From the NCBI RefSeq assembly GCF_024502345.1, contig NZ_JALDNN010000001.1: a DNA stretch of 64,000 nucleotides. One strand, given 5' to 3'. The stretch comes from Escherichia coli (lineage in GTDB: Bacteria > Pseudomonadota > Gammaproteobacteria > Enterobacterales > Enterobacteriaceae). The translations under genes were made by a program, and so were the position numbers. This document shows positions 39,118 through 57,946 of the stretch, in pieces; within the stretch, counting starts at the first letter, position 1; every line of letters starts with the position of its first letter. The notes under the pieces are model-generated. The model was not told where the DNA came from and ran no database searches. It saw only the letters and a program-made list of their open reading frames with translations.

Positions 39118-39204
39118 GCCCGGATGGTGGAATCGGTAGACACAAGGGATTTAAAATCCCTCGGCGTTCGCGCTGTGTGGGTTCAAGTCCCACTCCGGGT
39201 ACCA
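39118..39204 (+). tRNA. leuZ: tRNA-Leu (UAA anticodon), class II tRNA with long variable arm; integration site of the downstream island
   Basis: GCCCGGATGGTGGAATCGGTAGACACAAGGGATTTAAAATCCCTCGGCGTTCGCGCTGTGTGGGTTCAAGTCCCACTCCGGGTACCA. Confidence 0.9.
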
Positions 39205-39445: not shown

Positions 39446-40186
39446 CTAGCCACCCTGAGTACAAAGTTGCTTAATTCGTGCAATCACCTCATCTCTGTAC
39501 TTCTGGTGTCCGCGCATAGCCCGTGGATGGGCAATTCTGAAACAGATTGCATTACCTGTTTTGAACTCCCATAGCTTCCCCGGAATGACTGAAGAAGTCT
39601 CATAGCCGCCCAGCTCAGTAAGCACCTGTTTTATGATGTAGTCTGTTCTCCGGGCTCCAGATGCAAAGATGATGAAATCAGGCTCAAGGTGTTTAATTTG
39701 TACCGCCAGCAGCTTCAGCGAGGCTAATATGACTTCCTGCACTTCATTTTGAGGGCGATTGAGAGGGGTCAGTCCGTCGTAATCCCACGCCAGTAGATTG
39801 GCATACACGATTGCCTGGGGAAGAATATTAAGCTCCCGGGCCAGCCTGAAATGATATTGCGTGAAGCGGCTACGTGATTTGAGGTTGGTGGTGCCATCAT
39901 TTTGTACCGGAAGATGATTCCTGTAACGATCTACAGCTTCTTCAACCACCTGCCCGATGGTGACGTCAGGTATAAGTCCCAACACCCGTGATATCGTATT
40001 CTTACCATTCAGCGTATTCCAGCCTGCGGTTTCACGTCCAACCAGCATGATTTTTATCGGTGAATGCCAGTATTCTTCAAACGGCACGGGTAAAAAGACG
40101 CCTGAGTATTTATCTTCATTCAGGTTAAATGACTGGGCGTCAACTTCCTGTAATATCCGTTTGTACGCGTCTAATAGCTTTTCCAT
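39446..40186 (-). CDS. Island-encoded hypothetical protein, possibly a divergent uracil-DNA-glycosylase-superfamily protein
   Basis: 246-aa ORF between leuZ and the integrase; weak resemblance to UDG motifs (IMLVGRETAG; C-terminal IAHPRAMRG); assignment tentative. Confidence 0.45.
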   Translation of the reverse strand: MEKLLDAYKRILQEVDAQSFNLNEDKYSGVFLPVPFEEYWHSPIKIMLVGRETAGWNTLNGKNTISRVLGLIPDVTIGQVVEEAVDRYRNHLPVQNDGTTNLKSRSRFTQYHFRLARELNILPQAIVYANLLAWDYDGLTPLNRPQNEVQEVILASLKLLAVQIKHLEPDFIIFASGARRTDYIIKQVLTELGGYETSSVIPGKLWEFKTGNAICFRIAHPRAMRGHQKYRDEVIARIKQLCTQGG

Positions 40187-40236: not shown

Positions 40237-41484
40237 ATGATATCAATCAGATACATGAGGATAAATATGCAAAAATCCTTCCGATTCACCAATTCATCCA
40301 TCAAAGCCCTTCCGGCAAACACAGATACCCGATCTACAGAGCTTGAGGTATCAGATACCGAGGTCATAGGCCTCAAATGTCTCTCAGGTCGAACGGGTAA
40401 CAAACGTTTCCTCCTGCGCTACACATTCCACGGTACCAAAAAAAGTATCAGTATTGGCAGATTCCCTGAAATCGATGTGGGGACAGCCCGTCAGATAGCT
40501 CGCCGTCATAAGGAGGCGATTGCACTTGGAAATGACCCCAAGGCAGAGCGCGATAATTATCGTGCGATGCCAACGCTTAGTGAGTTTTTTCACCTGACCT
40601 ATGTTCCGTTCATCAAGCGCCATAAAAAGTCCTGGGATAAGGATGTTCAGCGTTTCACGCAATACATTGAACCTCGTCTGGGGAAGATACGTTACTGCGA
40701 TCTCAGGGCCAGAGAGATACAACAGGTGCTGTTTGACATGCTGGAGGGGCGTATTCACGGGCAGCAATATGCGCCGTCTACCTGTAACAGAGCCCTTGCT
40801 ATTCTGAAAACGATGGGGCGTTATGCGTTGCGACAGGATGTGCTGGAAAAGAATGAAGCCGATAAGATCCCTTTACTGAAAGAGAATAATCAGCGGACGC
40901 GCTTTTTTGATGCTGATGAGATCAGGCGCATTCTTGACGCTGCTACCCAATATCCCAACAAAGCTGCCGGGGGATTGATAGCCATGTTGTTGTTAACCGG
41001 TACACGCAAATCAGAAATGCTTAATGTCAGGCATGAACATATCGACCGGGCCAATCGTACTCTGTTCATTCCTTATACAAAAAATGGTCGCAGTCGGACG
41101 GTATATCTAAGCGATGCAGCATTATCGATTATTGATGCTATCCCACGAGTTGGCAGTAATCCGTATCTGTTCGCCATTAAGGATAATGGAAAACCGATAT
41201 CGGAACCCCGATGGGCATATGAAAAAATACTGGCACAGTGCGGTATAGACAAGAATGAAGTCTGTTTTCACACCACACGTCATTCTGTTGCCTCTTTACT
41301 GGTTTCGAGTGGTCAATTCAGCCTGTATGACGTTAAAGCACAACTGGCGCATGCCAGTATTCAAAGTACGGAGCGCTACGCGAAATTGACACCAGAGCGT
41401 ATGCGTCAGACCGGGCAGGGCGTAACTGACCTTCTTTTGAACACCGTTACTGCCGGTAACAATGATGATTTTAGCACCCCTTGA
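40237..41484 (+). CDS. int: P4-type tyrosine recombinase / integrase (probable start MQKSFRFTNSSIKALP at about 40267)
   Basis: C-terminal catalytic region with HTTRHSVASLL and LAHASIQSTERYAKL; immediately next to a tRNA gene. Confidence 0.85.
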   Translation: MISIRYMRINMQKSFRFTNSSIKALPANTDTRSTELEVSDTEVIGLKCLSGRTGNKRFLLRYTFHGTKKSISIGRFPEIDVGTARQIARRHKEAIALGNDPKAERDNYRAMPTLSEFFHLTYVPFIKRHKKSWDKDVQRFTQYIEPRLGKIRYCDLRAREIQQVLFDMLEGRIHGQQYAPSTCNRALAILKTMGRYALRQDVLEKNEADKIPLLKENNQRTRFFDADEIRRILDAATQYPNKAAGGLIAMLLLTGTRKSEMLNVRHEHIDRANRTLFIPYTKNGRSRTVYLSDAALSIIDAIPRVGSNPYLFAIKDNGKPISEPRWAYEKILAQCGIDKNEVCFHTTRHSVASLLVSSGQFSLYDVKAQLAHASIQSTERYAKLTPERMRQTGQGVTDLLLNTVTAGNNDDFSTP

Positions 41485-41493
41485 ACGTGGAGT

Positions 41494-41751
41494 ATGAGTA
41501 TGCCGTTAAAATGTCCTAAGTGTGGTAGCCGAAATACAGTGACAGAAACTGCCGGAAAGATAGCAGAAGTGACTCGCGATGACCGGTTCCTGACATCGAC
41601 ATCCGGTTATATTAGCCCGGAGCAATTACCAGAATTGCTTAAAGAAATCATCAGGGCGATACAACGTCTCTTTAGATTCCTTGAACAGCGTGAAAGGAAT
41701 AATGCGCCAGTGCTGATCTGCAAGGATTGTGGATATTATGAAAGAATATAG
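41494..41751 (+). CDS. Small zinc-ribbon protein (two CxxC pairs)
   Basis: 85-aa ORF, CPKCGS...CKDCGY. Confidence 0.5.
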   Translation: MSMPLKCPKCGSRNTVTETAGKIAEVTRDDRFLTSTSGYISPEQLPELLKEIIRAIQRLFRFLEQRERNNAPVLICKDCGYYERI

Positions 41752-41796
41752 ATGACCACTGAAGGCAATTCCAGATTCTTTAGCCTGTCTATGTAA

Positions 41797-41830
41797 CCCC
41801 GATACTTAAAACGTATCGGGTTTTTTGTTT
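41797..41830 (+). terminator. Rho-independent terminator
   Basis: Hairpin CCCGATAC-TTAAAACG-TATCGGG followed by TTTTTTGTTT. Confidence 0.65.
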
Positions 41831-41844
41831 ATGAGGATTATTCA

Positions 41845-42216
41845 ATGAAATTTGTCTCGAACTGGCAAGACCTGCCGTCGCTCCTTCTTCCGGAGTCAGT
41901 AATGAGTCTGTTGAAAACAGAGCTGGTACTCCCATTTGAAGATGAATACTCTGCAATGAGTTTCTGGGATGAAGTCGGGGTGACATTAATATATGTCGAG
42001 CCCGATGATGTACCTGAAGATATTAAAGCGCAGGTATTAAATGTGATTCATCAGTTAATTGCAAATCCAGAATTTGTAGTCCGTCTGACAGATGACTATT
42101 ACCTGATGCTTTCTGTTACGGAAGATAACGGGAACGGTATTTATCTGTTATTTCACCCCGATTGCCCTCTGAAGGGTATTGATTTATTAATTTCTATGGC
42201 CGAATCACGCTATTAA
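41845..42216 (+). CDS. Hypothetical acidic protein
   Basis: 123-aa ORF with plausible SD; first of three co-oriented island genes. Confidence 0.45.
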   Translation: MKFVSNWQDLPSLLLPESVMSLLKTELVLPFEDEYSAMSFWDEVGVTLIYVEPDDVPEDIKAQVLNVIHQLIANPEFVVRLTDDYYLMLSVTEDNGNGIYLLFHPDCPLKGIDLLISMAESRY

Positions 42217-42241
42217 ACACAAGCAAAACCTGGAACGCAAA

Positions 42242-42775
42242 ATGAGTAAATCAAAATTAGTTAAAAATAATGTTGAGTCAGTTTCGAAGGAGATTAAAAA
42301 TGAGGCAGAGGTTATTCATGAAAATCTCAGTGCAGATGAACAAACATTATCTGATATAAAAGACTATCAGTTGCTCATTGAAACAGGCCAGGCAGAAAAA
42401 ATCAGTCCTAAGGCAAGTGGTATTCTGACATGGCAACTGGCGATATCAGAGGTGGACAATGAACTTTATCTTCGTCTGGTGGCAAATGGCTGTGGAGGGT
42501 TGTTCTCTAAGGACTGGATCTCACTTTCTAAGATTGCAACTGTTCTGGAAACACAACCTGCTACCGGCTTCTCATCCGGAGTATTCAGGCCGCTATTCAA
42601 AGGGGCAAGCGCCAACAATGCAGGTTTTCTGGCTGCTGTTTTACGCTCCCCGGATATATGTCTGCTGGAGGCACATCCAGAGAAGTTATTTACTCATGTA
42701 TTATACCCGGACTGGAGGGAGCGGTTGAATAAACTTAATACGATCAGTAGCCAGGGAAAGATTACAGAGGATTAA
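42242..42775 (+). CDS. Hypothetical protein
   Basis: 177-aa ORF, 25 bp after the preceding gene. Confidence 0.45.
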   Translation: MSKSKLVKNNVESVSKEIKNEAEVIHENLSADEQTLSDIKDYQLLIETGQAEKISPKASGILTWQLAISEVDNELYLRLVANGCGGLFSKDWISLSKIATVLETQPATGFSSGVFRPLFKGASANNAGFLAAVLRSPDICLLEAHPEKLFTHVLYPDWRERLNKLNTISSQGKITED

Positions 42776-42847
42776 TTTATTTCCTGCACTGTTATACAAC
42801 CAGAAATCACCACACACCACTATTTACTTTCTAAAGGAAAATTTATT

Positions 42848-43282
42848 ATGCAAACCCAATATGCCTTAAAACAGGCAGGATTAACTCTGCCTGTTACTAA
42901 AGAATTTCAGCAGCATATTACTACTCTTCTGGCAAATCAGGTTTTACAAAAAATAACTGAGGCAGTGGTTATTAATTTCCGCGATCCGGACTACAGTGCA
43001 GAATCCGGGGGCTTTCATCCCGTTGAAATACGGTTTATCCGTAAGAATAATGAATGGTATTTTGATTATGTCACAGATTTTAGTTATATGGGGCGTGTCT
43101 ACCCTGAGCTGGAAAAAGAAATTGATTTTTGCTGGTCGGGGAATTATGTCTTCCATTATCTGATTGGGGATATTTCACTGGCAGCAGAGAGGAATGAACT
43201 CTGGTCTCTGTGGGAGCGTAATTTTATGGAGTATCTCTCTATGGGGATTTACCGGGTAACGGTAACTGTGGAAAGTTGTTGA
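42848..43282 (+). CDS. Hypothetical protein
   Basis: 144-aa ORF, co-oriented. Confidence 0.45.
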   Translation: MQTQYALKQAGLTLPVTKEFQQHITTLLANQVLQKITEAVVINFRDPDYSAESGGFHPVEIRFIRKNNEWYFDYVTDFSYMGRVYPELEKEIDFCWSGNYVFHYLIGDISLAAERNELWSLWERNFMEYLSMGIYRVTVTVESC

Positions 43283-43583
43283 CCCGTTATGAACAGGAAG
43301 AAAGCGGGCGGCTTTGTAATCTACAGCATGTGGTGTGCATCACAGCATGGAGATGATGTCTCTTTTTCCTGGCTGTTCGCATAAACAAGTGCAGACACGG
43401 GGGATCTCAGATCCCTCGTGATTTTTGCCCCCTATGGTGCATTCTTCTGTAGCAGGGTGATAACGGTTAATCCATTACCCCAACGACAGTATTACACCGG
43501 TAATAAATGTTCATGAATACAGTTAGTTATGTGGGTTTTGAGGTGGGCTATGTCATCGTTGACGATAACTGAAGGTTTTACAG

Positions 43584-43811
43584 ATGTATAAAACTCGCGG
43601 TGAAAGGATCGCAGAAAGGCTGTGCTGGATATTACTTCAACTGTATACCGGTAATACGGTATCGGTTAATGATATATGTCAGCGTTTCGCGGTCAGTCGC
43701 CGAACCGGACAGCGTGATTTGTTGAGAGTTGAAACTGTAACGGAAACTATTTCACCTGGAAGGGTAAGGCTGGCAAATTTGATAAGGGAACGAGTTAGAC
43801 GAAATTTTTAA
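43584..43811 (+). pseudogene. Remnant of a WYL/BrxR-type regulator gene (N-terminal HTH only)
   Basis: 75-aa ORF resembling the N-terminal HTH of the 300-aa regulator at 44773-45675; no WYL domain follows. Confidence 0.4.
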
Positions 43812-43892: not shown

Positions 43893-44711
43893 CTACTCAA
43901 ATGATATTAATTTAGGTGCGACAGTGTTTTTATGACATGTTAAATTCGCAAGATCAATAATATCATGAAACAATTTTATGTCGTCGTCAGTGAGCTCTAC
44001 GTCTGGATCAGCTAAATCGGCACAGGTAACATTTAACCAGTGTGTTAATGAATCAATCCTGTTTGAAGTAATATATTCAGTGTGACCAATATCCCACTTC
44101 CAGTTGATCACCCGAGCAGGTCTGAATCTCACCTCCCGAACCCCAATTGGCGTTACTGACTCTACGAGAGGGTATATCGTGTTAAGTACTTTATCATGTT
44201 CACTGTAGATATTTAAATGCCCCATTTTTGAACCGTAAGCCATTTTCATTATGTTCTCTGTATAACTTGTTATTGGGGTGGCTCCGGCCATAGAGATTGT
44301 TAAGAGAATATTATCATTTTTAATATAGGGTAATGTATTGTTTATTAATCGAGTCCCTAAAGAATGACCCATTATGATCACATTACGCTTTTCTTTAACG
44401 TATATCTCGTTTATTACGTGTGCTAATTTTTCTCTGTTATTAACTGCTGCTTTCGTTGCATTATACCAGGCCTGACGCGCTTTAAATGGAATGGAGATTG
44501 ATGACAATAAAGGAGATGTTCTCAGGGGGAAGAGAGTATATAACCCCCACTTGTTCGCTATGTCAGAACTTAATATGGATAGTAGATTTGCCGATTCCCA
44601 TTTATAGTATCTGACATCAAGGCCACACCCTGCTTTAATTCGGTTAAACCATGATATATCATTTTCGGTCAGAAACCCTGATACAACAAGAAGAACCGGG
44701 CATTTTTTCAT
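43893..44711 (-). CDS. Alpha/beta-hydrolase-fold protein with GHSLG nucleophile elbow (esterase/lipase-like), function unknown
   Basis: 272-aa ORF; GxSxG motif GHSLG; candidate Asp/His downstream; immediately downstream of the WYL regulator gene. Confidence 0.6.
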   Translation of the reverse strand: MKKCPVLLVVSGFLTENDISWFNRIKAGCGLDVRYYKWESANLLSILSSDIANKWGLYTLFPLRTSPLLSSISIPFKARQAWYNATKAAVNNREKLAHVINEIYVKEKRNVIIMGHSLGTRLINNTLPYIKNDNILLTISMAGATPITSYTENIMKMAYGSKMGHLNIYSEHDKVLNTIYPLVESVTPIGVREVRFRPARVINWKWDIGHTEYITSNRIDSLTHWLNVTCADLADPDVELTDDDIKLFHDIIDLANLTCHKNTVAPKLISFE

Positions 44712-44772
44712 GGTAACTCCATTTTTTAGCTTACAAAAATAGCACTCAATGAAAATTATATTATCCGTGTCA

Positions 44773-45675
44773 TTACGGGGCGTTACTTGGCTGGGTGTAA
44801 CGTTTCAGTGCGGATTGTATATCTTCAGCAAGTTGTTGACGGATTGAGGCCGGTTGTATTACTTCGACATCCGGTATCCAGTATTTCATTAAAGGCATTA
44901 TCTGATCTGTGTGTGTTACACGTGATATCACCAGTAAATCGCCAGACCGGGAAGTATGAATTATTTCCTGTCCTGGCAATAGATGACGGTGGGTAAACCA
45001 CGGAGCAACATGTGCGGAAACTGAAATAAGAACTTCGATAAGGTCTTCGCTATACCAGATACCATCTGTCTTTTCTATTTTTTCATTAATTTCGGGGATT
45101 ATCCTGAAAGAGATATTACTCATGCAAACGTCTTTGACAGATGAGATAACAAAGCTTTTTAATGTACTGTCATGGGCGGCAGCGAGATACCACAATCCGT
45201 TGTCATTAACCAGCCTGTATGGCTCAACAGCCCGAAACTCTTTATCTTTGTAATTAAAATTTACTTTCTTCTGTGACAGGATGGCATCGGATAATACATT
45301 CAGAATTGACATGAATGATCCGCAGTTTTCGTATGGACGTTGTTTTATCAGAAACGGGTTGTTTTTCGTGTTACCTAACAAAATACTCAGTAGTCTGTCA
45401 TCCCAGCGAGGGAACAGCCCTTCAATACCCAGGATGCGCGTGAAATGACGTAAATCAGCATTGCTGCGTTGACCGAGAACACCGTCAGACAGGCGATAGC
45501 GACCATTTTGTCGAATCAGATTAAGATAGGACAGGCGCTGAGTAAGATCACGACGGATAGTTTTTTCGCAAACGTTAAATTCCTCAGATAACTCCCGGAC
45601 GGCTAGTGACTCACCATTGTTCAGGCGAGTTAATATCAATCCGAGTCGATATCCAAGTTTATCGTGCTTACCCAT
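44773..45675 (-). CDS. HTH + WYL-domain transcriptional regulator (BrxR/CapW-like, defence-island regulator family)
   Basis: 300-aa ORF; N-terminal DeoR-like HTH ([22 protein letters not shown]), central WYL-type segment ([10 protein letters not shown]). Confidence 0.65.
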
Positions 45676-45723: not shown

Positions 45724-45836
45724 CGGACAGGATGAGTCCACTTTTACTGTGACGGAGAAAAAAATTAACTCATTAATTATCAATATATTAAAACATTGCT
45801 GGAATCATCGAATAACATGTGGACTCATCCTGTCCA
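45724..45836. promoter_or_regulatory. Perfect 17-bp inverted repeat pair upstream of the WYL regulator gene (candidate operator)
   Basis: GGACAGGATGAGTCCAC at 45724-45740 and its exact reverse complement at 45820-45836. Confidence 0.45.
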
Positions 45837-46054: not shown

Positions 46055-46381
46055 ATGTATTTACATATCAGAAAGTATCAACTCGTAAATGCGAGATGGC
46101 GTGATGTCATTGATCTGACAGATTATGAAGAAACAATCAGGCAGGTTGTCGGTACATTATTTGGAAATGATTTTATTGAGGTCAGCGTTGAAACAAATTG
46201 TTTTACTCTGACAGTAAACAGTACAAGCAGTAAAATACCACACGGCATACTGGTGAATATGGGGAAAAGGCTGGCGGCTAATCTCCAGAGTATCACCTGT
46301 CATGCCATGCGGATCTATCATGTAAATGGCCATCCTGACGCGCGGCAGTTATTTCACTGTTTTGATGCCGATTGCCTGTGA
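46055..46381 (+). CDS. Hypothetical protein
   Basis: 108-aa ORF convergent with the piPolB gene; weak support. Confidence 0.3.
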   Translation: MYLHIRKYQLVNARWRDVIDLTDYEETIRQVVGTLFGNDFIEVSVETNCFTLTVNSTSSKIPHGILVNMGKRLAANLQSITCHAMRIYHVNGHPDARQLFHCFDADCL

Positions 46382-46429: not shown

Positions 46430-49093
46430 TCAGACTGGAAGACAGAATGTCGGATATTTACGGGCTATGATATCCATCAGTGACTTCATTCGCGGTGTTA
46501 CAGAACTAAATTTCATTTGGGGTATTTTTGCTCTTACCGCATTTTTTACATCAGTCACCGTTACTGAATAGCCTTCTGACGTCAGCCATTCAGCAACCTC
46601 TTTACAGGAATAACTTTTTTTATCTTTCAGCATCAGCCCCCATTGGCACTGAGTCAGCGCCCGGAGAAATAGTCTGACTAAAATATCATCACTACGTTTG
46701 CTTCCGACTTTTAGTTTCATATCAGAAAACACCGTCCGGCAATAGAGAAAATCACACCAGTCATCCCAGTCAGCCAGGGTCTTCAGTGTATGCGTTTGCC
46801 GCCAGTCGTCGAAAAGGGAGCGCTGCTGCAGAGCCTCTTCCATATTATCCCATGGGCGGGAAAACATCAGTAAATGCCCTTCATTCATGGCGGGCTGTAC
46901 GGGCTGGCGTTTGAAATCGAATTCCAGATTAAGACGGATATCCTGTTCCCGGGATACCAGATCGCTTTCCGACAGCCACATCTCACGCGTTGATATCAAC
47001 GTACTTCGGGATAAAGTCTGACCGGGTAAACGATTAAGGTAAAGATCTACCATATAGTCGTTATAGTCACTGCGTGGAATATCGGCAGGAGGTTTGACGC
47101 CAGCCCTGGCATGAACAACAGGTTTTCCCTGAATAGCTCTATAGGTTAACTGCCCCCGGGTTTTCATGGCGATAAGCTGGCTGACTTCATGCTTACATGT
47201 CAACATTGATGAACCCGGATCAACAATATCGCACAGCGACTGGAAGCGGGAAGACAGTGGACCGCTCATGTTTATCTTGTTAAGTGGGCAATTTGTCAAA
47301 AAGCCATCGGTTGTGACGCTGACAACCGATGAATCAGAAGGCAAAGCATTCATGAGTTCCCCGGCAACGGCGCGGATAAATCCCGTTACATGCGCAGCAA
47401 AGAATGGCTGAGTAACCGATGATGGTGGGAGGGATCTGTTTAATCCACGGGCAGTATCAAAGGCGGTTTTGGCGCGAAGGCCCTGAGCAAGTTTGCCATA
47501 AAGCGAGTTGCCAATTTCTTTCCAGAATTTCTCCTCCAGAGAACCTTTAATATGGCGATTACGGTTCTCACGGACCTGTTGAACAAAGGGAAGAAACACC
47601 GATGTTGATTCGCTGTTATGTGGGGAGGTGTCACAGATCCAGGGGACGATGATCCCATTATGGATCGTCATCTCTGCCCCGAGCGACAGAGCAAGTTCGA
47701 TTTCAGGTGCCGTTGCCCATGATTCGCCACTTAATGGAAAGAATAACCCATATTGATCGGTCCGAACCGGCAGGCTGGGATAGGGAACTGATTCCGGGAA
47801 CCGAAATGTGACAAGCGCAAATCCCATTACATGCCCACAGTAATCGTCCGGATTTTTACTGAGGCGGATGTTCCCGTAATCGGGTGTGAGGATATCTAAT
47901 AGCCCGGTGGTATACGCTCCAGCCAGATCGTAGTCATACCAGTGATCAGACGGTGTAACCCCCATCATAAAACACTCATTGCGTCCGCCGTGGTAACAGT
48001 TGATCGGGAACGTTTCAAACAACTCTCTTGAAGGAACACTGGCGGGGTTTTTAATCGTCCGGAATGCCTGTTTCTCCGTGAGCCAGAGTTCACGGGTTTT
48101 AATGTGTGTCCCAAGGCAGACTTCAGGAGACATATTGTTTTCTTTAAGTGTTTTGGTGAACCGTGAAACTGCCATCGCCCCGATGGTGGCGGGGACACGA
48201 TCAATCATCAGCTCCCGGGCGCAAAAATTGCGAACCTGTAAAGCATAACGAACCGCAATCTCGGCATCCCGCAGAGCATAGGCTTCAAACCCTGCTCTGT
48301 CGCCCAGAAGATATTCACGCATATTGGTTATGGAATAAGGTGCAGGAATGGTGAGTTTGGGAAGACCCAGTAATTCACCACATTCAGCCAGACCCATACC
48401 CCCGGGAGTGATAAGCAGTGTATCGATGAAAGCTACGTTACTGCAACGCGGAGGGGAAGTTCGTTTGTCAAACATTATCTGTTCAGTCTTTACGCGACGT
48501 TCCTGCTGTTCATCAAAATCGATACCGTAACGATTTTTGAAGCTGCTGACAGTACCGCGTATTCCTTTCAGAAGAATTTTGTAGTCTGACCAGAAATTGG
48601 CAAAGGAGGCGATATCCGCACGAATGAAATGCGCATATATATTAATAATACCGGGCCATTTTGTAATCACACCCGTTTCAAGAAGCGGTGTAATCGTTTG
48701 ACAGAGAAATTCCTTAAAAGACAGCCGGGATTTTTTCTGTGAGTCAGGTGGATAGATAATGTTCGATATACCTGTATTATCGGGTAAGATAACATAACTC
48801 TGATATGACAGAATATCATTCTGTCGTGTTTCAGGGTTGAAAACATATTCGGTATCAAAACCGATATGGAGTGTCAGGTCACTTGAAATAACAGATACTT
48901 TTTTTGATGCAGGTGGTATCACAGGATAATCATCAAGCGTTTTAGGTCTTTTACGATTGAGCGCTGGCTCTGAAGTCACGGACTGATACCCCGAGGCGGC
49001 AGCGAGGATGTCCTGCAAATTATTGCTCATAGTTAACTCCGAAAAAATGCCGGGAGCTGTGTCCCGGCATAAAGAATCAGGATTTAATAACAT
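46430..49093 (-). CDS. Family B DNA polymerase of the primer-independent (piPolB) type, pipolin hallmark gene
   Basis: 887-aa ORF; Exo I FDTE; motif B KEIGNSLYGK; motif C-like VTTDGF; KTRG in place of the canonical KxY motif (IAMKTRGQLTY). Confidence 0.8.
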   Translation of the reverse strand: MLLNPDSLCRDTAPGIFSELTMSNNLQDILAAASGYQSVTSEPALNRKRPKTLDDYPVIPPASKKVSVISSDLTLHIGFDTEYVFNPETRQNDILSYQSYVILPDNTGISNIIYPPDSQKKSRLSFKEFLCQTITPLLETGVITKWPGIINIYAHFIRADIASFANFWSDYKILLKGIRGTVSSFKNRYGIDFDEQQERRVKTEQIMFDKRTSPPRCSNVAFIDTLLITPGGMGLAECGELLGLPKLTIPAPYSITNMREYLLGDRAGFEAYALRDAEIAVRYALQVRNFCARELMIDRVPATIGAMAVSRFTKTLKENNMSPEVCLGTHIKTRELWLTEKQAFRTIKNPASVPSRELFETFPINCYHGGRNECFMMGVTPSDHWYDYDLAGAYTTGLLDILTPDYGNIRLSKNPDDYCGHVMGFALVTFRFPESVPYPSLPVRTDQYGLFFPLSGESWATAPEIELALSLGAEMTIHNGIIVPWICDTSPHNSESTSVFLPFVQQVRENRNRHIKGSLEEKFWKEIGNSLYGKLAQGLRAKTAFDTARGLNRSLPPSSVTQPFFAAHVTGFIRAVAGELMNALPSDSSVVSVTTDGFLTNCPLNKINMSGPLSSRFQSLCDIVDPGSSMLTCKHEVSQLIAMKTRGQLTYRAIQGKPVVHARAGVKPPADIPRSDYNDYMVDLYLNRLPGQTLSRSTLISTREMWLSESDLVSREQDIRLNLEFDFKRQPVQPAMNEGHLLMFSRPWDNMEEALQQRSLFDDWRQTHTLKTLADWDDWCDFLYCRTVFSDMKLKVGSKRSDDILVRLFLRALTQCQWGLMLKDKKSYSCKEVAEWLTSEGYSVTVTDVKNAVRAKIPQMKFSSVTPRMKSLMDIIARKYPTFCLPV

Positions 49094-51329: not shown

Positions 51330-52460
51330 CTACAGTTTCATGATCTTGTTCGCTATTTTTTCGAAGTAAACCTCATTCTTAAGAAGAGTGATATTGTTTG
51401 TTTGAACACCCAGACCACTGGAGGTTGACTGGAAGTTGAGTGAACCACTTATCACTGTGGACTTTCCTGATAAAAATGAAATCAACTCCTTGGAAGATGG
51501 TGCCCACTCAGGGTTTAAGAGTAATGCAATATAGATATATGTCTTACGAAGCAATTGTTCTATATCTTTTTTATGCCCTGTAGTGTTTTGCTTACCTTTA
51601 ATGCAAATAGATTTGATTATGAACTCATCAGGGCTGGTTAAAGGCGTTTTAAACTCACTCAGTGATCCATCGTTATGAATGACTTCATAAGGCAGCATAG
51701 ATAAAATGATCAATGCAATCATTTTAGGATGATAAAGGTAGTTATCACGAATGATTTTTCCTGCCTTCATTGTATTGAGCGTTGTTTGAATAAATACAAA
51801 AAGATATTCAGAGCAAAAGTAACAAAACACAAGCCAGGATAGGTCAATGGATGGAATGTTAATATCCTTAGGTAGTTTGTTTAGCCAGTATTCAGACTTC
51901 AAAAAGGTCCTGATTTCAACAGTATATTCATGCATTTTTGCGCTGAAATCAAGCATTGCTACTTGACCTGATTGTTCCGTAACTGTGTGGTCTATAAATG
52001 TTAGTGTATTGCACATTTTATCCAGCGTGTTTTGAAAACAAGAAAGGAGTTCGGCATTATTATTACCATTAACCGCAGATGAAAGTTCAGTTTTAATAAA
52101 TGCATCCAGTAGCATACAGATTTCTTTCGGAATGACATTTTTACGGGATTGCTGTGAATAGAAATGTACTGCCAGTAAATTAAAGGCAGTGCACTCCTTT
52201 TTTAACCATTGTTCGAGCACTGGGACGTGCTGAAAAAAATTGATATGCTTAGCAGTAGATGCTGATGGAGATAGTACATGAAGAATATCTACAGCAGGCT
52301 TCATTTGCAATATTTGATCGGATTCGGTAGTCGTCATTAGTTCCAGTAATTGCTGTTCAGAAAATAGTTTAGACAGGTGATCAATGTCTTTTTGGTATTG
52401 ATTAAGTTTTGTTAAATTCCCCGGTATACGGGTTACATTGTTTTTCATTTTCTCGAACAT
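51330..52460 (-). CDS. Hypothetical protein (AT-rich gene, no recognisable motifs)
   Basis: 376-aa ORF, Lys/Asn/Ile-rich; long uninterrupted frame in a strongly AT-rich stretch. Confidence 0.5.
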   Translation of the reverse strand: MFEKMKNNVTRIPGNLTKLNQYQKDIDHLSKLFSEQQLLELMTTTESDQILQMKPAVDILHVLSPSASTAKHINFFQHVPVLEQWLKKECTAFNLLAVHFYSQQSRKNVIPKEICMLLDAFIKTELSSAVNGNNNAELLSCFQNTLDKMCNTLTFIDHTVTEQSGQVAMLDFSAKMHEYTVEIRTFLKSEYWLNKLPKDINIPSIDLSWLVFCYFCSEYLFVFIQTTLNTMKAGKIIRDNYLYHPKMIALIILSMLPYEVIHNDGSLSEFKTPLTSPDEFIIKSICIKGKQNTTGHKKDIEQLLRKTYIYIALLLNPEWAPSSKELISFLSGKSTVISGSLNFQSTSSGLGVQTNNITLLKNEVYFEKIANKIMKL

Positions 52461-52966: not shown

Positions 52967-54202
52967 TTAAAAGGAAATAAATAATGCCTTCCGCCGATGA
53001 ATCAGTGTACTGATTTCTCGAAAATCAGCCTCAATACTACCAACATCACCAAAGACTTCACCACTAATCTCTCTTCGATTTTTCATGAAATTGGTGCTTA
53101 ATAAGCTTTCTTTTTTTAGTGTCACTAATTTTGGTTTTATATCGTTATAGAAATGCTTACGGCTTACCCTGATGCTATGAATCGAGTAGTAAACTGTTTT
53201 ATACATCAAAAATATAAGTAACTGGCCGAGAAGATATTCTTTTTCAATGTATTTATATTGAGAGGATTTTTCGCGTTTCGCCAGGTAGAAAACATGAGGT
53301 GCGATGATGGTGGGGATGAAATCCAGTGCTGGAGAGGTTTTGGTTTTTTCTGTTTCTCTTCCGGATTGAAGATGTTGAAGTACAGAGTATACAATGCTTA
53401 AAATTATGGCGTTACTTATATTATTAATTGCAGTTGGGTAAATATGCAGATTGCTTATCAATTCTGAAAGGCAAAGTAAAACACCAGTGATGTTGGGTTT
53501 TCTGCCGGAGATTGTGGTGCTGTTGAAAATGTGACGATTCTTACGACTTATATTGACAAGTTTATGAGTGCAGAACTCTATATGTTCGACGATTTTATCT
53601 TGACTATTTTTAATGTATTTTGAAATGTTAGTGATCCGGCCATTCAACGTTAGTTCATCAAGCAATATATCATTTTTAATATTGCGAATTTCATCGCAAT
53701 GTTCACATTGAGAAACTATCTCATGTAATACATAACTCGACGTATTGCGGGGTGACGCTGATATGTAATCTAAAATAGAAGGCTCGATTTTGATTTTTTG
53801 TTTGTATTTTTTAATGCACTGTTTGATTGTTTTTTGTAGAGTATTTGAGATGTGTTTTTTATATTCTTTTAGAAAATCTTGCTCTAAAAAGAGTGAGGAG
53901 AAGATCAACTGCTGGCGAGATAATTTAATCTCAGGCTTGATCAATTTAATCCGAAAAACTCTTCCCTCCAACTCATAGCTGAACATGGAAGATAAGTCAT
54001 AGTGGGGTGATAAATGTTCGAGTAACGACATTCGTGTATTCATTAGCCGCTTGAATTTATGGTCAGCATACATAAGTGTTTTTTTTATTTGCTCATCATA
54101 AAGTGGGCCGATAGCGCAGTTGGCAATACTCATTCTATCCGGAGACCTCCAGTCAGCAGGGGAATCACATTGACGGTCATCATTACTATCAAAGGGCATC
54201 AA
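52967..54202 (-). CDS. Hypothetical protein (AT-rich gene, no recognisable motifs)
   Basis: 411-aa ORF, similar composition to the preceding gene; divergent from hsdM. Confidence 0.5.
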   Translation of the reverse strand: MMPFDSNDDRQCDSPADWRSPDRMSIANCAIGPLYDEQIKKTLMYADHKFKRLMNTRMSLLEHLSPHYDLSSMFSYELEGRVFRIKLIKPEIKLSRQQLIFSSLFLEQDFLKEYKKHISNTLQKTIKQCIKKYKQKIKIEPSILDYISASPRNTSSYVLHEIVSQCEHCDEIRNIKNDILLDELTLNGRITNISKYIKNSQDKIVEHIEFCTHKLVNISRKNRHIFNSTTISGRKPNITGVLLCLSELISNLHIYPTAINNISNAIILSIVYSVLQHLQSGRETEKTKTSPALDFIPTIIAPHVFYLAKREKSSQYKYIEKEYLLGQLLIFLMYKTVYYSIHSIRVSRKHFYNDIKPKLVTLKKESLLSTNFMKNRREISGEVFGDVGSIEADFREISTLIHRRKALFISF

Positions 54203-56029: not shown

Positions 56030-57266
56030 GGGGTGGAAACGAGTACCGATTAAGGATGTGTGCGAGTCTATAATCGATTGCGTAAATAAAACAGCTCCAG
56101 TTGTTGATTATGAAACTCCCTTTAAGATGATTCGTACCACGAATGTACGTAATGGAAGGGTTAATACTGAAGACGTCAGATATGTGACTGAAGACACTTA
56201 CCTGCAATGGGTTCGACGCGGAAAACCGCAAGTAGGTGATATCATCTTTACACGTGAAGCACCTGTAGGAGAAGCAGGTGTCCTGCAAGATGCTGAAGGT
56301 ATTTTCCTCGGGCAAAGAACGATGATGTATCGAGCTGATACCTGCCTTTCAGATAACTATTTCTTGTTCTACTCGTTATCAAGTCCCTTCTGCCAGAAAC
56401 AAATTGAAGATTTTAGCAATGGCGGTACTGTAGCTCATATGAGAGTTCCAGATTGCGGTGAGATATTGATCAATCTACCGCCTTTCCTCGAACAAAAGAA
56501 AATCGCCCAAATCCTGTCAACCTGGGATAAGGCGATTTCGGTGACGGAAAAGCTTCTCACCAACAGCCAGCAGCAGAAAAAAGCCCTGATGCAGCAATTG
56601 CTTACTGGGAAGAAACGCTTGCTGGATGAGAATGGGACAAGGTTTTCTGAAACTTGGAAATTATATGCCTTATCGAAATTATTTCAGAGAGTTACGACTA
56701 AAAACAATGGAAAAAGCAACAATGTTGTAACCATTTCTGGACAACATGGTTTGATTAAACAGGAAGACTTTTTCAAGAAAACAGTCGCATCAGATACCCT
56801 TGATGGTTATTTCTTATTAAAAAAAGGGCAGTTTGCTTACAATAAAAGTTACTCTAATGGTTATCCGATGGGTGCAATAAAAAGATTAAATCGATATCCA
56901 GAGGGAGTAGTAACAACTCTGTATATATGTTTTGAACTTACTACACCCAAAAAATCATGTGGTGACTATTGGGAGCATTATTTTGAGTCAGGGCTTTTGA
57001 ATAACAGTTTGTCTCAAATTGCTCATGAAGGTGGACGGGCTCATGGCTTGCTAAATGTAAAACCTTCGGACTTCTTTTCATTAAAAGTTGCGGTTCCTGG
57101 CTTTGAAGAGCAACAAAAAATCGCATTAGTTCTGTCCGCTGCCGACACCGAAATCTCCACACTGGAGAAAAAACTCGCCTGCCTGAAAGACGAGAAGAAA
57201 GCCTTGATGCAGCAACTGCTGACCGGGAAACGTCGGGTGAAAGTGGATGAGGCGGTTGCCGTATGA
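56019..57266 (+). CDS. hsdS: Type I restriction-modification system specificity subunit HsdS
   Basis: 415-aa ORF with two target-recognition domains separated by conserved repeats (KKALMQQLLTGKKRLL and KKALMQQLLTGKRRVK); overlaps the hsdM end. Confidence 0.85.
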   Translation: MVPKGWKRVPIKDVCESIIDCVNKTAPVVDYETPFKMIRTTNVRNGRVNTEDVRYVTEDTYLQWVRRGKPQVGDIIFTREAPVGEAGVLQDAEGIFLGQRTMMYRADTCLSDNYFLFYSLSSPFCQKQIEDFSNGGTVAHMRVPDCGEILINLPPFLEQKKIAQILSTWDKAISVTEKLLTNSQQQKKALMQQLLTGKKRLLDENGTRFSETWKLYALSKLFQRVTTKNNGKSNNVVTISGQHGLIKQEDFFKKTVASDTLDGYFLLKKGQFAYNKSYSNGYPMGAIKRLNRYPEGVVTTLYICFELTTPKKSCGDYWEHYFESGLLNNSLSQIAHEGGRAHGLLNVKPSDFFSLKVAVPGFEEQQKIALVLSAADTEISTLEKKLACLKDEKKALMQQLLTGKRRVKVDEAVAV

Positions 57267-57946
57267 AACTGACGAAAAGCGGTCCACTGACTGACCGGGA
57301 AATCGACTGGCTGGAAGAAATATTAATGAAGTATGGAATGGATGATTCTGTACTCTGTTTCTCTGAGCTGGATGGATTGCTGACGGCGATTTTATCAGGT
57401 CCAAATATGGTTTCACCCAATATCTGGCTGAGTGCTATTTGGGGAGGAGGCGATTATCATCCGAAATGGTCATCTGAGAGAGAGATGGAGCGTTTTGTCA
57501 GTCTGTGTTTTCAGCATATGAACGATATCGCTGGTTGCCTTTATGACGCCCCTGAACTGTTTGAGCCGATTTTCAATGAGCGTGAGGTAAAGGGGGAAAA
57601 ATATACCATTGTGGAAGAGTGGTGTTTTGGTTATATGAAAGGAAAGTCACTGGATGACTGGTCTGGTCTTCCCGGTGAGTTACGGCCTTCTCTGGAAGTG
57701 ATCGCTCTTCATGGCGTGGAGAAGAATTTTCCTGTACTTGAGAAAATGACCGGAGAGCAGTTTGAGAAAAGTATTTCCCTTATTCAGCCTGCTGCACTGG
57801 CACTTTATCAGTACTGGTTGTCAGTGAGAATGTCAGAGGCATCATCCCGGCCTGTTCCAGTGAAGGGGGCAGAAAACATGCCCGGGCGAAATGACCCGTG
57901 TCCGTGTGGCAGCGGTAAAAAATTTAAGAAGTGCTGTCTGCATTGA
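57263..57946 (+). CDS. YecA-like (UPF0149) protein with C-terminal SEC-C zinc motif, embedded in the Type I R-M operon
   Basis: 227-aa ORF; C-terminal GRNDPCPCGSGKKFKKCCLH; start overlaps the hsdS stop (ATGA). Confidence 0.8.
   Translation: MKLTKSGPLTDREIDWLEEILMKYGMDDSVLCFSELDGLLTAILSGPNMVSPNIWLSAIWGGGDYHPKWSSEREMERFVSLCFQHMNDIAGCLYDAPELFEPIFNEREVKGEKYTIVEEWCFGYMKGKSLDDWSGLPGELRPSLEVIALHGVEKNFPVLEKMTGEQFEKSISLIQPAALALYQYWLSVRMSEASSRPVPVKGAENMPGRNDPCPCGSGKKFKKCCLH

What the first reader, a model, noticed from the sequence alone, without database searches (positions are those of the whole stretch)
41494..43282. Integrase-proximal cluster of four small uncharacterised genes
A zinc-ribbon protein (85 aa), followed by a terminator, then three tightly spaced co-oriented ORFs (123, 177, 144 aa) with no recognisable motifs lie directly downstream of the integrase. 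Integrase-proximal small genes in mobile elements often encode excision control, anti-restriction, or anti-defence functions.
Basis: inference. Interest (0 to 1): 0.45.

Follow-up and report, generated by a model that had tools for sequence, protein, structure and literature searches.

The report
Conserved core genes of a pipolin
The four small genes are real and sit in the already-described, conserved "core" of an E. coli pipolin (a self-replicating genomic island inserted at a leucine tRNA gene); three of them form an ancient integrase-linked set whose function nobody has tested, so the locus is known but its biochemistry is still open.

Summary
"No recognisable motifs" is wrong for the 144-aa protein, which is a DUF2787 protein related to the solved V. 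cholerae structures VC0508 and VC1805. The region is the att-proximal core of a pipolin inserted at tRNA-Leu. The 2024 pipolin paper already names IntSXT, DUF2787, WYL and "orphan proteins" as this core, with no function assigned.

New here:
- The cluster is two units. int plus the zinc-ribbon ORF1 end at a hairpin; ORF1 is lineage-specific and also occurs alone in temperate phages. ORF2-ORF3-DUF2787 is an ancient trio.
- The 177-aa ORF3 belongs to a family of about 1,250 clusters with no Pfam model. It is predicted as a beta-sheet plus winged helix with an invariant SxNNAGFLAAVLR helix.
- ORF2 and DUF2787 are consistently very acidic.
- The trio also occurs in relatives with no piPolB found in the 10-kb flanks. 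It was not found in phage genome records and is nearly absent from plasmids.

Best reading: an island backbone module, with a DNA binder and two acidic partners, acting in the element's own DNA cycle. Anti-restriction remains an untested rival. Known feature, moderate interest.

The parts
39118..39204 (+). tRNA-Leu(UAA) (leuZ), the insertion site; left boundary of the island
   Evidence: ARAGORN and Rfam. Same uvrC-pgsA-glyW-cysT-leuZ context in RefSeq genomes. GC falls from about 0.50 to 0.40-0.46 after it. The right-hand repeat is not in the window.
39446..40186 (-). 246-aa conserved pipolin gene; by position and frequency, most likely the type-4 uracil-DNA glycosylase that the literature reports in E. 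coli pipolins (my inference)
   Evidence: No Pfam hit; phrog_29550. PMC7385651 reports a type-4 UDG as very frequent in E. coli pipolins. Present in 11 loci.
40237..41484 (+). Tyrosine integrase, the att-proximal type that PMC11551731 calls IntSXT
   Evidence: PF00589 8.9e-24 and PF13356 2.9e-14. RefSeq 'site-specific integrase'. dN/dS 0.04-0.06.
41494..41751 (+). ORF1, 85-aa basic zinc-ribbon protein (probable start 41500), likely co-transcribed with int; lineage-specific
   Evidence: Two CxxC pairs are invariant. All zinc-ribbon Pfam hits are below cut-off. phrog_32727 6e-34. dN/dS 0.09-0.17. Found in only 7 of 74 loci. 40%-identical homologues occur alone in a phage-plasmid and in phage contigs.
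41798..41826 (+). Intrinsic terminator-like hairpin plus U-tract ending the int-ORF1 unit
   Evidence: -12.4 kcal/mol, 0 of 200 shuffles as stable. Its sequence recurs exactly in 8 loci.
41845..42216 (+). ORF2, 123-aa very acidic protein (pI 4.05); first gene of the conserved trio
42242..42775 (+). ORF3, 177-aa protein: disordered acidic N-tail, 3-stranded sheet, then a winged-helix-like domain with an invariant SxNNAGFLAAVLR helix; anchor of the module
42848..43282 (+). ORF4, 144-aa DUF2787 protein (acidic, Mam33/p32-like fold family); third gene of the trio
   Evidence: PF10980 3.8e-40. PDB 2W56 (VC0508) and 2V1L at E 4e-26 and 3e-24. VC1805 is described as a monomeric Mam33-like fold in PMC2881812. 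Directly downstream of ORF3 in 41 of 74 loci.
43396..43425 (+). Strong intrinsic terminator-like hairpin ending the ORF2-ORF4 unit
   Evidence: -21.9 kcal/mol, z -4.8.
43584..43811 (+). ORF5, 75-aa stand-alone HTH protein related to the N-terminus of the WYL regulator; conserved fifth small gene
   Evidence: HTH_11 and HTH_DeoR hits below cut-off, and the PADLOC WYL model at positions 3-43. Kept as a 74-88-aa ORF after DUF2787 across the Enterobacterales loci in which the HTH/WYL profile found a copy.
43893..45675 (-). DUF726 alpha/beta-hydrolase (43893-44711) and HTH-WYL-WCX regulator (44773-45675), convergent with the small-gene cluster
   Evidence: Pfam, PADLOC WYL, RefSeq annotation.
46430..49093 (-). 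887-aa primer-independent family-B DNA polymerase (piPolB), the pipolin hallmark
   Evidence: The near-identical RefSeq copy is annotated 'DNA polymerase type-B family protein'. Homologues hit PF03175. The window protein itself has no Pfam hit at E <= 1e-3.

Best explanation
Shown:
- The region is the conserved, att-proximal backbone of an E. coli pipolin inserted at tRNA-Leu (leuZ).
- It holds two transcription-unit-like blocks.
- Block 1 is int plus ORF1, a small basic zinc-ribbon protein acquired only in the Escherichia-like lineage. It ends at a hairpin terminator.
- Block 2 is ORF2-ORF3-DUF2787. This gene trio keeps its order next to a tyrosine integrase across Gammaproteobacteria; ORF3 alone extends into Betaproteobacteria.

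Inferred mechanism:
- ORF3 is the DNA-binding component. It has a beta-sheet plus winged helix whose third helix is invariant.
- The two strongly acidic proteins, ORF2 and DUF2787, are made with it and act as its partners or modulators.
- Together they serve the island's own DNA cycle: control or assistance of excision and integration, or handling of the excised or incoming copy.
- They are not interchangeable anti-defence cargo.
- ORF1 is an accessory of the int unit, or a moron, with no assignable activity.
For: Identity of the element:
- tRNA-Leu boundary, integrase, piPolB, WYL regulator and a type I RM system.
- The literature defines exactly this core for gammaproteobacterial pipolins: IntSXT, DUF2787, WYL and orphan proteins (PMC11551731).

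Real genes:
- dN/dS 0.09-0.22 for all four ORFs.

Module structure across 74 species-level loci found with the ORF3 profile:
- Integrase within 3 kb in 61 loci.
- ORF2 directly upstream in 44, DUF2787 directly downstream in 41, both in 34.
- Usual order is Int > ORF2 > ORF3 > DUF2787, with short gaps. ORF2 and ORF3 overlap by 8 nt in 8 loci.
- ORF1 is present in only 7 loci.

Independence from the replicase:
- The trio also occurs in relatives where no piPolB was found: with a DUF927 primase-helicase in L021-L031, and ORF2-ORF3 in V. vulnificus L003.

Island specificity:
- No hits in 50,697 phage records.
- Among 72,556 plasmids: ORF2 0, ORF3 1, DUF2787 14. The two plasmid copies I inspected both lie next to an integrase.

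ORF3 as a DNA binder:
- Confident AF2 model with a canonical winged-helix element order.
- The C-terminal half is basic (pI 9.0) and the SxNNAGFLAAVLR helix is invariant.

Acidic partners:
- Family medians are pI 4.3 with net charge -13 for ORF2, and pI 4.55 with net charge -11 for DUF2787.
Against: - No experiment or homology assigns any activity.
- The invariant helix is largely hydrophobic, so it could be a protein-protein surface.
- No conserved DNA motif was found in the intergenic DNA of the loci.
- Pairwise-identity correlation between the trio and the neighbouring integrase is low (Spearman 0.22-0.37). E. coli shows two int/ORF1 alleles combined with the same ORF2-4 allele. Both argue against an integrase-specific partner such as a directionality factor.
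- No sigma-70-like promoter was found between the ORF1 terminator and ORF2, so how the trio is expressed is unknown.
- Pipolins with this core deleted persist in genomes (PMC11551731).
Confidence: 0.45

Rival explanations
1. Anti-restriction or anti-defence 'establishment' genes. The acidic ORF2 and/or DUF2787 would act as DNA mimics or inhibitors. They would protect the incoming island from the new host's restriction or other defence systems while the integrase acts.
For: - ORF2 and DUF2787 are small and strongly acidic throughout their families, as known DNA-mimic anti-restriction proteins are (my knowledge of Ocr and ArdA).
- They are integrase-proximal.
- In another island DUF2787 sits two genes from RadC and next to int (L090). 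From my own knowledge, not tested here, CP4-type islands place an anti-restriction gene in a comparable position.
- ORF1 gives a sub-threshold Lar_restr_allev hit (18.3 bits against a 28.6 cut-off).
Against: - No significant match to any anti-restriction family in Pfam, NCBIfam or PHROGs.
- No structural match for ORF2.
- The ORF1-Lar hit covers only the cysteine motifs.
- The genes are fixed backbone, classed as non-exchanged core genes in PMC11551731, not variable cargo.
- They are essentially absent from plasmids and were not found in phage records, unlike generic anti-restriction genes.
- This idea does not explain the winged-helix ORF3 in the middle of the trio.
Confidence: 0.25
2. A host-beneficial defence or stress module. 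The trio, with neighbouring effectors such as the DUF726 hydrolase (LRAT-like or small membrane proteins in relatives) and the WYL regulators, would be an uncharacterised phage-defence or abortive-infection system kept in the core of a defence island.
For: - Pipolins are defence islands (PMC11551731).
- WYL regulators commonly flank defence systems (cited there).
- Hydrolase, LRAT-like, DUF1232 and glycine-zipper membrane proteins recur beside the trio.
- DUF2787, LRAT, RNase HI and an integrase co-occur as one gene cluster in a Vibrio pangenome (PMC12409351).
Against: - No PADLOC model, candidate systems included, matches any of the four proteins.
- None has a recognisable effector or NTPase domain.
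- The neighbouring effectors vary while the trio stays constant.
- The Vibrio study reports no association between phage absence and defence systems.
Confidence: 0.1
3. Some or all of the ORFs are chance reading frames or decaying remnants without function.
For: - ORF1 is not annotated in the seven RefSeq copies inspected.
- No promoter was predicted for ORF2-4.
Against: - dN/dS is 0.09-0.22 for all four ORFs.
- The frame is preserved across an indel variant of ORF1.
- Homologues at 30-40% identity keep the same gene order in many genera.
- The AF2 models are confident.
Confidence: 0.02

Closest known systems
Gammaproteobacterial pipolin core (Mateo-Caceres & Redrejo-Rodriguez, NAR 2024, PMC11551731; E. 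coli pipolins, Sci Rep 2020, PMC7385651)
   Same: - Same element type, same tRNA-Leu site and same gene set next to the att-proximal integrase: DUF2787, WYL and 'orphan proteins'.
- The papers already report that this core is syntenic at 30-35% identity and is not exchanged with other mobile elements.
   Different: The papers assign no function and do not dissect the orphans. Added here:
- ORF1 is a separate lineage-specific zinc-ribbon gene in the int unit.
- ORF3 belongs to a family of about 1,250 clusters with a predicted winged helix.
- ORF2 and DUF2787 are uniformly acidic.
- The trio also occurs in DUF927-type islands where no piPolB was found.
DUF2787 proteins VC0508 (VSP-II, PDB 2W56) and VC1805 (VPI-2; I take PDB 2V1L to be this protein from memory, the hit table names it only 'hypothetical protein')
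   Same: - Clear sequence homology (E 4e-26 and 3e-24) and the Pfam family.
- Also encoded in integrase-bearing genomic islands.
- VC1805 is described as a monomeric Mam33/p32-like fold (PMC2881812).
   Different: - The Vibrio islands have no piPolB, from my knowledge of VSP-II and VPI-2; this was not checked here.
- No function is known for any member, so homology transfers a fold, not an activity.
DNA-mimic anti-restriction proteins (Ocr, ArdA) and the KlcA/ArdB-RadC clusters of P4-integrase islands
   Same: - Small, strongly acidic, encoded near the integrase or entry end of mobile elements.
- DUF2787 can neighbour RadC.
   Different: - No sequence or structural similarity detected.
- Restricted to chromosomal islands rather than spread over plasmids and phages.
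- Activity untested.
Winged-helix DNA-binding proteins (TubR, Fur DNA-binding domain, ArsR, AspA)
   Different: - ORF3 adds an N-terminal 3-stranded sheet and a disordered acidic tail.
- Its third helix is invariant across very distant elements, which is unusual for an element-specific operator binder.
Small zinc-ribbon proteins of phages and prophages (for example Lar, the YnfU and ECs_2282 families)
   Same: ORF1 has two CxxC pairs, is about 80-90 aa, and has homologues in temperate phages in accessory-gene positions.
   Different: - All family matches are below the curated cut-offs and cover only the cysteine motifs.
- The two half-ribbons are split by a helical insert of about 65 residues.

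Membership tests
Pipolin (piPolB-encoding integrative element) | Encodes a primer-independent family-B DNA polymerase | tested here: met
   The 887-aa ORF at 46430-49093 corresponds to a RefSeq 'DNA polymerase type-B family protein' in a locus 97.8% identical at the DNA level. Homologues in related loci hit PF03175. The window protein itself gave no Pfam hit at E <= 1e-3. Primer-independent activity is not testable here.
Pipolin (piPolB-encoding integrative element) | Integrated at a tRNA gene with a tyrosine recombinase next to the site | tested here: met
   tRNA-Leu at 39118-39204. Integrase at 40237-41484. The same junction is present in the E. coli genomes inspected.
Pipolin (piPolB-encoding integrative element) | Flanking att-like direct repeats | tested here: inconclusive
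   No second copy of the tRNA 3' end or of the adjacent sequence is in the window. By comparison with L002, the island should end about 4.6 kb beyond the window.
Gammaproteobacterial pipolin core module | DUF2787, WYL-domain and orphan genes grouped around the att-proximal integrase | tested here: met
   and the definition in PMC11551731.
DUF2787 (PF10980) | Score above the Pfam gathering threshold over the full domain | tested here: met
   137.5 bits against 27; residues 19-140 match profile positions 2-126 of 126.
Anti-restriction proteins (ArdA, KlcA/ArdB, Ocr, Lar) | Sequence or fold membership in one of these families | tested here: not met
   [not shown]
Anti-restriction proteins (ArdA, KlcA/ArdB, Ocr, Lar) | Relief of restriction in vivo or binding to a restriction enzyme | not testable with these tools
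   Needs plating or transformation assays.
Winged-helix DNA-binding domain (ORF3) | a1-b1-a2-a3-b2-b3 topology | tested here: met
   AF2/DSSP elements: H95-103, short strand about 110-111, H112-118, H124-135, E142-144, E151-154, at pLDDT about 90. This is a prediction, not a solved structure.
Winged-helix DNA-binding domain (ORF3) | Significant structural similarity to solved winged-helix proteins, and DNA binding | tested here: inconclusive
   [not shown]
Excisionase / recombination directionality factor (Xis, AlpA, HTH_17) | Membership of a known RDF family, or co-evolution with the cognate integrase | tested here: not met
   No HTH_17 or Xis hit for ORF1-4. Identity correlation with the neighbouring integrase is only 0.22-0.37. 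The island's HTH-type excisionase-like gene lies elsewhere, next to the second recombinase.
Zinc-ribbon proteins (ORF1) | Two conserved CxxC knuckles | tested here: met
   C7, C10, C76 and C79 are invariant in homologues down to 40% identity. The Pfam zinc-ribbon models all score below their cut-offs; the best is 23.8 against 29.
Known or candidate phage-defence systems (PADLOC-DB v2) | Match to a system component model | tested here: not met
   No hit for ORF1-4 at E <= 0.1.

The most novel reading that the evidence does not exclude
ORF2-ORF3-DUF2787 could be an unrecognised three-protein machine that defines a wider superfamily of integrase-linked islands: pipolins plus DUF927-type relatives lacking piPolB. 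It would carry out a step with no described equivalent. One example is capturing or protecting the excised or incoming island DNA and handing it to the integrase or replicase. Another is exploiting a helper for transfer, which would explain how elements without conjugation or virion genes move. ORF3 would recognise a DNA structure rather than a sequence, which would account for its invariant helix.
Probability: 0.15. Interest if true: 0.65.

Novelty: already known. Interest (0 to 1): 0.3.

Why it matters
Pipolins are widespread defence-gene carriers. Their mode of mobilisation, and the role of their few conserved genes, are unknown. This cluster is most of that conserved core.

If the trio proves to control excision, establishment or transfer, it would explain how these elements spread without conjugation or virion genes. 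It would also give a function to DUF2787, which is present in the V. cholerae pandemic islands, and to a family of about 1,250 clusters that has no Pfam model.

As it stands, the locus is a known feature with untested biochemistry. It is not a new system.

Tried and rejected
- **Family libraries.** Pfam, NCBIfam, PHROGs and PADLOC scans of all four proteins gave only DUF2787 and function-less PHROGs.
- **PDB sequence and profile searches** for ORF1-3 found nothing significant.
- **IS disruption of ORF1.** I first thought ORF1 was disrupted by an IS in most E. coli copies, because many hits start at query position about 200. This is rejected: those copies carry an intact 80-aa allele whose N-terminal half has diverged, and the IS21 element in L011 lies in int.
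- **Shared DNA motif or operator** across 78 loci by k-mer counting: only tRNA sequences and the lineage-specific terminator came up.
- **Repeat search around the cluster**: no iterons.
- **Rfam**: only the three tRNAs.
- **Co-evolution test, trio against integrase or polymerase**: weak correlations, not decisive.
- **Link between the 135-aa acidic protein of distant pipolins and ORF2** by hhalign: probability 35%, suggestive only.
- **Search for the right-hand att repeat**: it lies outside the window.
Full report
**What is there.**
- The window is E. coli chromosome: uvrC, pgsA, then tRNA-Gly, tRNA-Cys and tRNA-Leu.
- Directly after tRNA-Leu (39118-39204) the G+C content drops from about 0.50 to 0.40-0.46, and an island begins.
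- The island carries, in order: a 246-aa gene on the minus strand; a tyrosine integrase (40237-41484; Phage_integrase and Arm-DNA-bind_3); the four ORFs of the finding; a 75-aa HTH gene; a DUF726 hydrolase and an HTH-WYL-WCX regulator on the minus strand; and an 887-aa family-B DNA polymerase.
- Further on come a second recombinase with an HTH (excisionase-like) gene, a type I restriction-modification system and a GmrSD-like nuclease.
- This is the gene set and insertion site of E. coli pipolins (PMC7385651, PMC11551731).

**Check of the observation.**
- All four ORFs and the hairpin after the first one are at the stated coordinates.
- The hairpin at 41798-41820 plus U6 folds at -12.4 kcal/mol, with 0 of 200 shuffles as stable. 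A stronger terminator-like hairpin (43396-43420, -21.9 kcal/mol) follows the fourth ORF.
- Against diverged E. coli copies, dN/dS is 0.09-0.17 for ORF1, 0.11-0.14 for ORF2, 0.19-0.22 for ORF3 and 0.11-0.13 for ORF4. The integrase is at 0.04-0.06.
- An 80-aa allele of ORF1 differs by an in-frame 5-codon deletion and keeps both CxxC pairs.
- All four are therefore real genes, including ORF1, which is not annotated in the seven RefSeq copies I inspected.
- The statement 'no recognisable motifs' fails for the 144-aa protein. It is a full-length DUF2787 (137.5 bits against a cut-off of 27) and is homologous to the solved V. cholerae island proteins VC0508 (2W56) and 2V1L.
- The 2-kb block is present in 338 of 5,426 complete E. 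coli genomes, always on the chromosome.

**Two units, not one cluster.**
- ORF1 starts 9 nt after the int stop (15 nt if the better-spaced ATG at 41500 is used, which is where the PHROG profile begins). It is followed by the terminator.
- In E. coli, a second int allele travels with a diverged N-terminal half of ORF1, while the C-terminal half of ORF1 and ORF2-4 stay about 96-100% identical. A recombination joint therefore lies inside ORF1.
- ORF1 occurs in only 7 of 74 species-level loci, all of them Escherichia-like enterobacterial pipolins.
- Homologues of ORF1 at 40% identity occur on their own in an Enterobacter phage-plasmid, after the lysis genes, and in several temperate-phage contigs.
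- ORF1 is thus a lineage-specific small basic zinc-ribbon protein attached to the int unit.
- Every named zinc-ribbon or Lar-type match is below threshold and covers only the cysteines, so no activity can be assigned.

**The trio.**
- An ORF3 profile retrieved 74 loci from one genome per species. They cover Enterobacterales, Vibrionales, Aeromonadales, Alteromonadales, Oceanospirillales, Methylococcales, Chromatiales and several Betaproteobacteria.
- Iterated HMMs built from the window proteins gave these counts across the 74 loci:

| Feature | Loci (of 74) |
|---|---|
| Integrase within 3 kb of ORF3 | 61 |
| ORF2 homologue directly upstream, same strand | 44 |
| DUF2787 directly downstream | 41 |
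| Both ORF2 and DUF2787 | 34 |

- The usual order is Int > ORF2 > ORF3 > DUF2787 with short gaps. ORF2 and ORF3 overlap by 8 nt in 8 loci.
- Aeromonas has the order ORF3 > DUF2787 > Int, followed by piPolB in three of the five such loci.
- A piPolB gene was seen within the 10-kb flanks in only 20 loci, or 13 of the 40 loci with full flanks.
- In one enterobacterial group (L021-L031), most loci carry ORF2-ORF3-DUF2787 with an LRAT-like gene, the small HTH, a WYL regulator and, in some, the orf108 homologue. They also carry a DUF927 primase-helicase and have no polymerase where E. coli has it.
- A V. vulnificus island has Int, a ParB-like protein, a D12 methylase, ORF2 (33% identity), a DUF1232 membrane protein, ORF3 and WYL, with no piPolB.
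- The published work mentions possible piPolB-less pipolin-like islands. These loci are concrete examples.
- The three proteins were not found in 50,697 phage records. Among 72,556 plasmids, ORF2 has 0 hits, ORF3 has 1 and DUF2787 has 14. The two plasmid copies I inspected both lie next to an integrase.

**What the proteins look like.**
- *ORF3 family.* An exhaustive HMM search gave 1,257 representative clusters at E <= 1e-3 and 773 at E <= 1e-10. The twenty family members I scanned hit no Pfam or NCBIfam model.
- *ORF3 model.* The AlphaFold model is confident for residues 40-171, at pLDDT about 90. It shows a disordered acidic N-tail, a three-stranded sheet, then helix-strand-helix-helix-hairpin in the order of a winged helix, and a final helix.
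- *ORF3 conservation.* The third helix is the invariant SxNNAGFLAAVLR segment, and the C-terminal half is basic at pI 9.0.
- *DUF2787.* This family is equally acidic (median pI 4.55). Through VC1805 it belongs to the Mam33/p32-like fold, in monomeric form (PMC2881812). No member has a known function.

**How it most likely works.**
- Shown: a fixed, purifying-selected gene order next to an integrase; independence from the type of replicase; restriction to chromosomal islands; one predicted nucleic-acid-binding protein flanked by two acidic proteins; tight or overlapping gene junctions.
- Inferred: the three proteins act together. ORF3 binds DNA and the acidic proteins act as partners or modulators. 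They serve the island's own DNA cycle (timing or assistance of excision and integration, or handling of the excised or incoming copy) rather than acting as exchangeable cargo.
- I put this at about 0.45.
- A strict recombination-directionality role is weakened by two results. The pairwise-identity correlation with the neighbouring integrase is low (0.22-0.37), and int alleles are swapped against the same trio in E. coli.
- The invariance of the ORF3 helix across very distant elements, with no shared intergenic DNA motif, suggests a structural DNA target or a protein partner rather than an element-specific operator.

**Rivals.**
It has no homology support, does not explain ORF3, and fits poorly with the genes' near absence from plasmids and the lack of hits in phage records.
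- *A defence or abortive module under WYL control (about 0.1).* It fits the island type and the variable hydrolase and membrane-protein neighbours. No PADLOC model matches, and the trio has no effector-like domain.
- *Chance ORFs.* Excluded by the conservation data.

**Comparison with what is known, and novelty.**
- The existence, synteny and 'core' status of these genes are published: IntSXT surrounded by DUF2787, WYL and orphan proteins, classed as non-exchanged core genes (PMC11551731).
- No paper in the held library assigns them a function, and no later pipolin study was found.
- The finding is therefore an already known feature.
- What this analysis adds is the split into two units, the size and predicted fold of the ORF3 family, the family-wide acidity of the two partners, the relatives where no piPolB was found, and the island-restricted distribution.

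**Verdict.** Interest is moderate to low (0.3) as a known element with an open functional question. A minority reading (about 0.15) is that the trio is a new kind of island-establishment or transfer machine.

Noticed in passing
window 43584-43811 (+): A 75-aa stand-alone HTH protein related to the N-terminal HTH of the neighbouring WYL regulator. It is kept as a 74-88-aa ORF just after DUF2787 across the Enterobacterales loci where a copy was found. It is probably a fifth conserved small gene that the finding did not include.
   Followed up: partly
window 45725-45741 and 45819-45835: A perfect 17-nt inverted repeat (GGACAGGATGAGTCCAC) with a 77-nt spacer, in the divergent region between the WYL regulator gene and the 108-aa ORF at 46055-46381. 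It could be an operator or a transcript structure.
   Followed up: no
window 42242-42775 and P0161-P0303: The ORF3 family has about 1,257 clusters at 50% identity in the exhaustive search, and the twenty members scanned hit no Pfam or NCBIfam model. Distant members carry long acidic C-terminal tails with a recurring DDAEMxLLQ-like motif.
   Followed up: partly
L021-L031 (Enterobacter, Kluyvera, Buttiauxella, Cedecea, Limnobaculum and others): Pipolin-like islands carrying ORF2-ORF3-DUF2787, usually with LRAT, the small HTH, WYL and sometimes orf108. They also hold a DUF927 primase-helicase and up to three recombinases, with no piPolB where E. coli has one.
   Followed up: partly
L005 8827-9549, L062, L066, L074, L084, L087: In distant pipolins (methanotrophs, Allochromatium, Zoogloea) ORF3 is overlapped by 4 nt by a 135-aa acidic protein that is weakly ORF2-like (hhalign probability 35%). 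That protein is sometimes fused or adjacent to a conserved 'GDWG...ITEADRSxTTxLLPxEY' domain with no Pfam family.
   Followed up: partly
L090 (E. coli plasmid CP088398.1) 6179-9425: A DUF2787 - hypothetical - RadC - integrase arrangement without ORF2 or ORF3. From memory it resembles V. cholerae VSP-II, where VC0508 is the DUF2787 protein and VC0510 is annotated as a DNA repair protein. DUF2787 is therefore integrase-linked in more than one island type.
   Followed up: partly
L003 6777-9212 (V. vulnificus): A 516-aa ParB-like protein and a D12-class adenine methyltransferase sit between the integrase and the ORF2/ORF3 pair. A second integrase-DUF927 element is integrated in tandem downstream.
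   Followed up: no
L091 (IMG/VR contig 2681813421_000004): A contig filed as viral is in fact a pipolin core (ORF1-4, HTH, WYL). This may explain why all four proteins have PHROG families although no phage genome record carries them.
   Followed up: partly
window 57263-57946 (+): A YecA-like UPF0149 plus SEC-C protein gene lies between the S and R subunit genes of the island's type I restriction-modification operon. The chromosomal yecA lies just outside the island in related genomes.
   Followed up: no
window 51330-52460 (-) and 52967-54202 (-): Two long ORFs (376 and 411 aa) in the lowest-GC part of the island (0.34-0.38) have no Pfam hit. The first is annotated as two separate hypothetical genes in a related genome (L002).
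   Followed up: no
L011 674-2640; L098 5343-6040; L001 24589-25557: IS elements (IS21-like in int, IS1 in the DUF726/WYL operon, IS5 next to the WYL gene) hit the genes around the trio in different E. coli strains. ORF2-4 stay intact in every copy inspected.
   Followed up: partly
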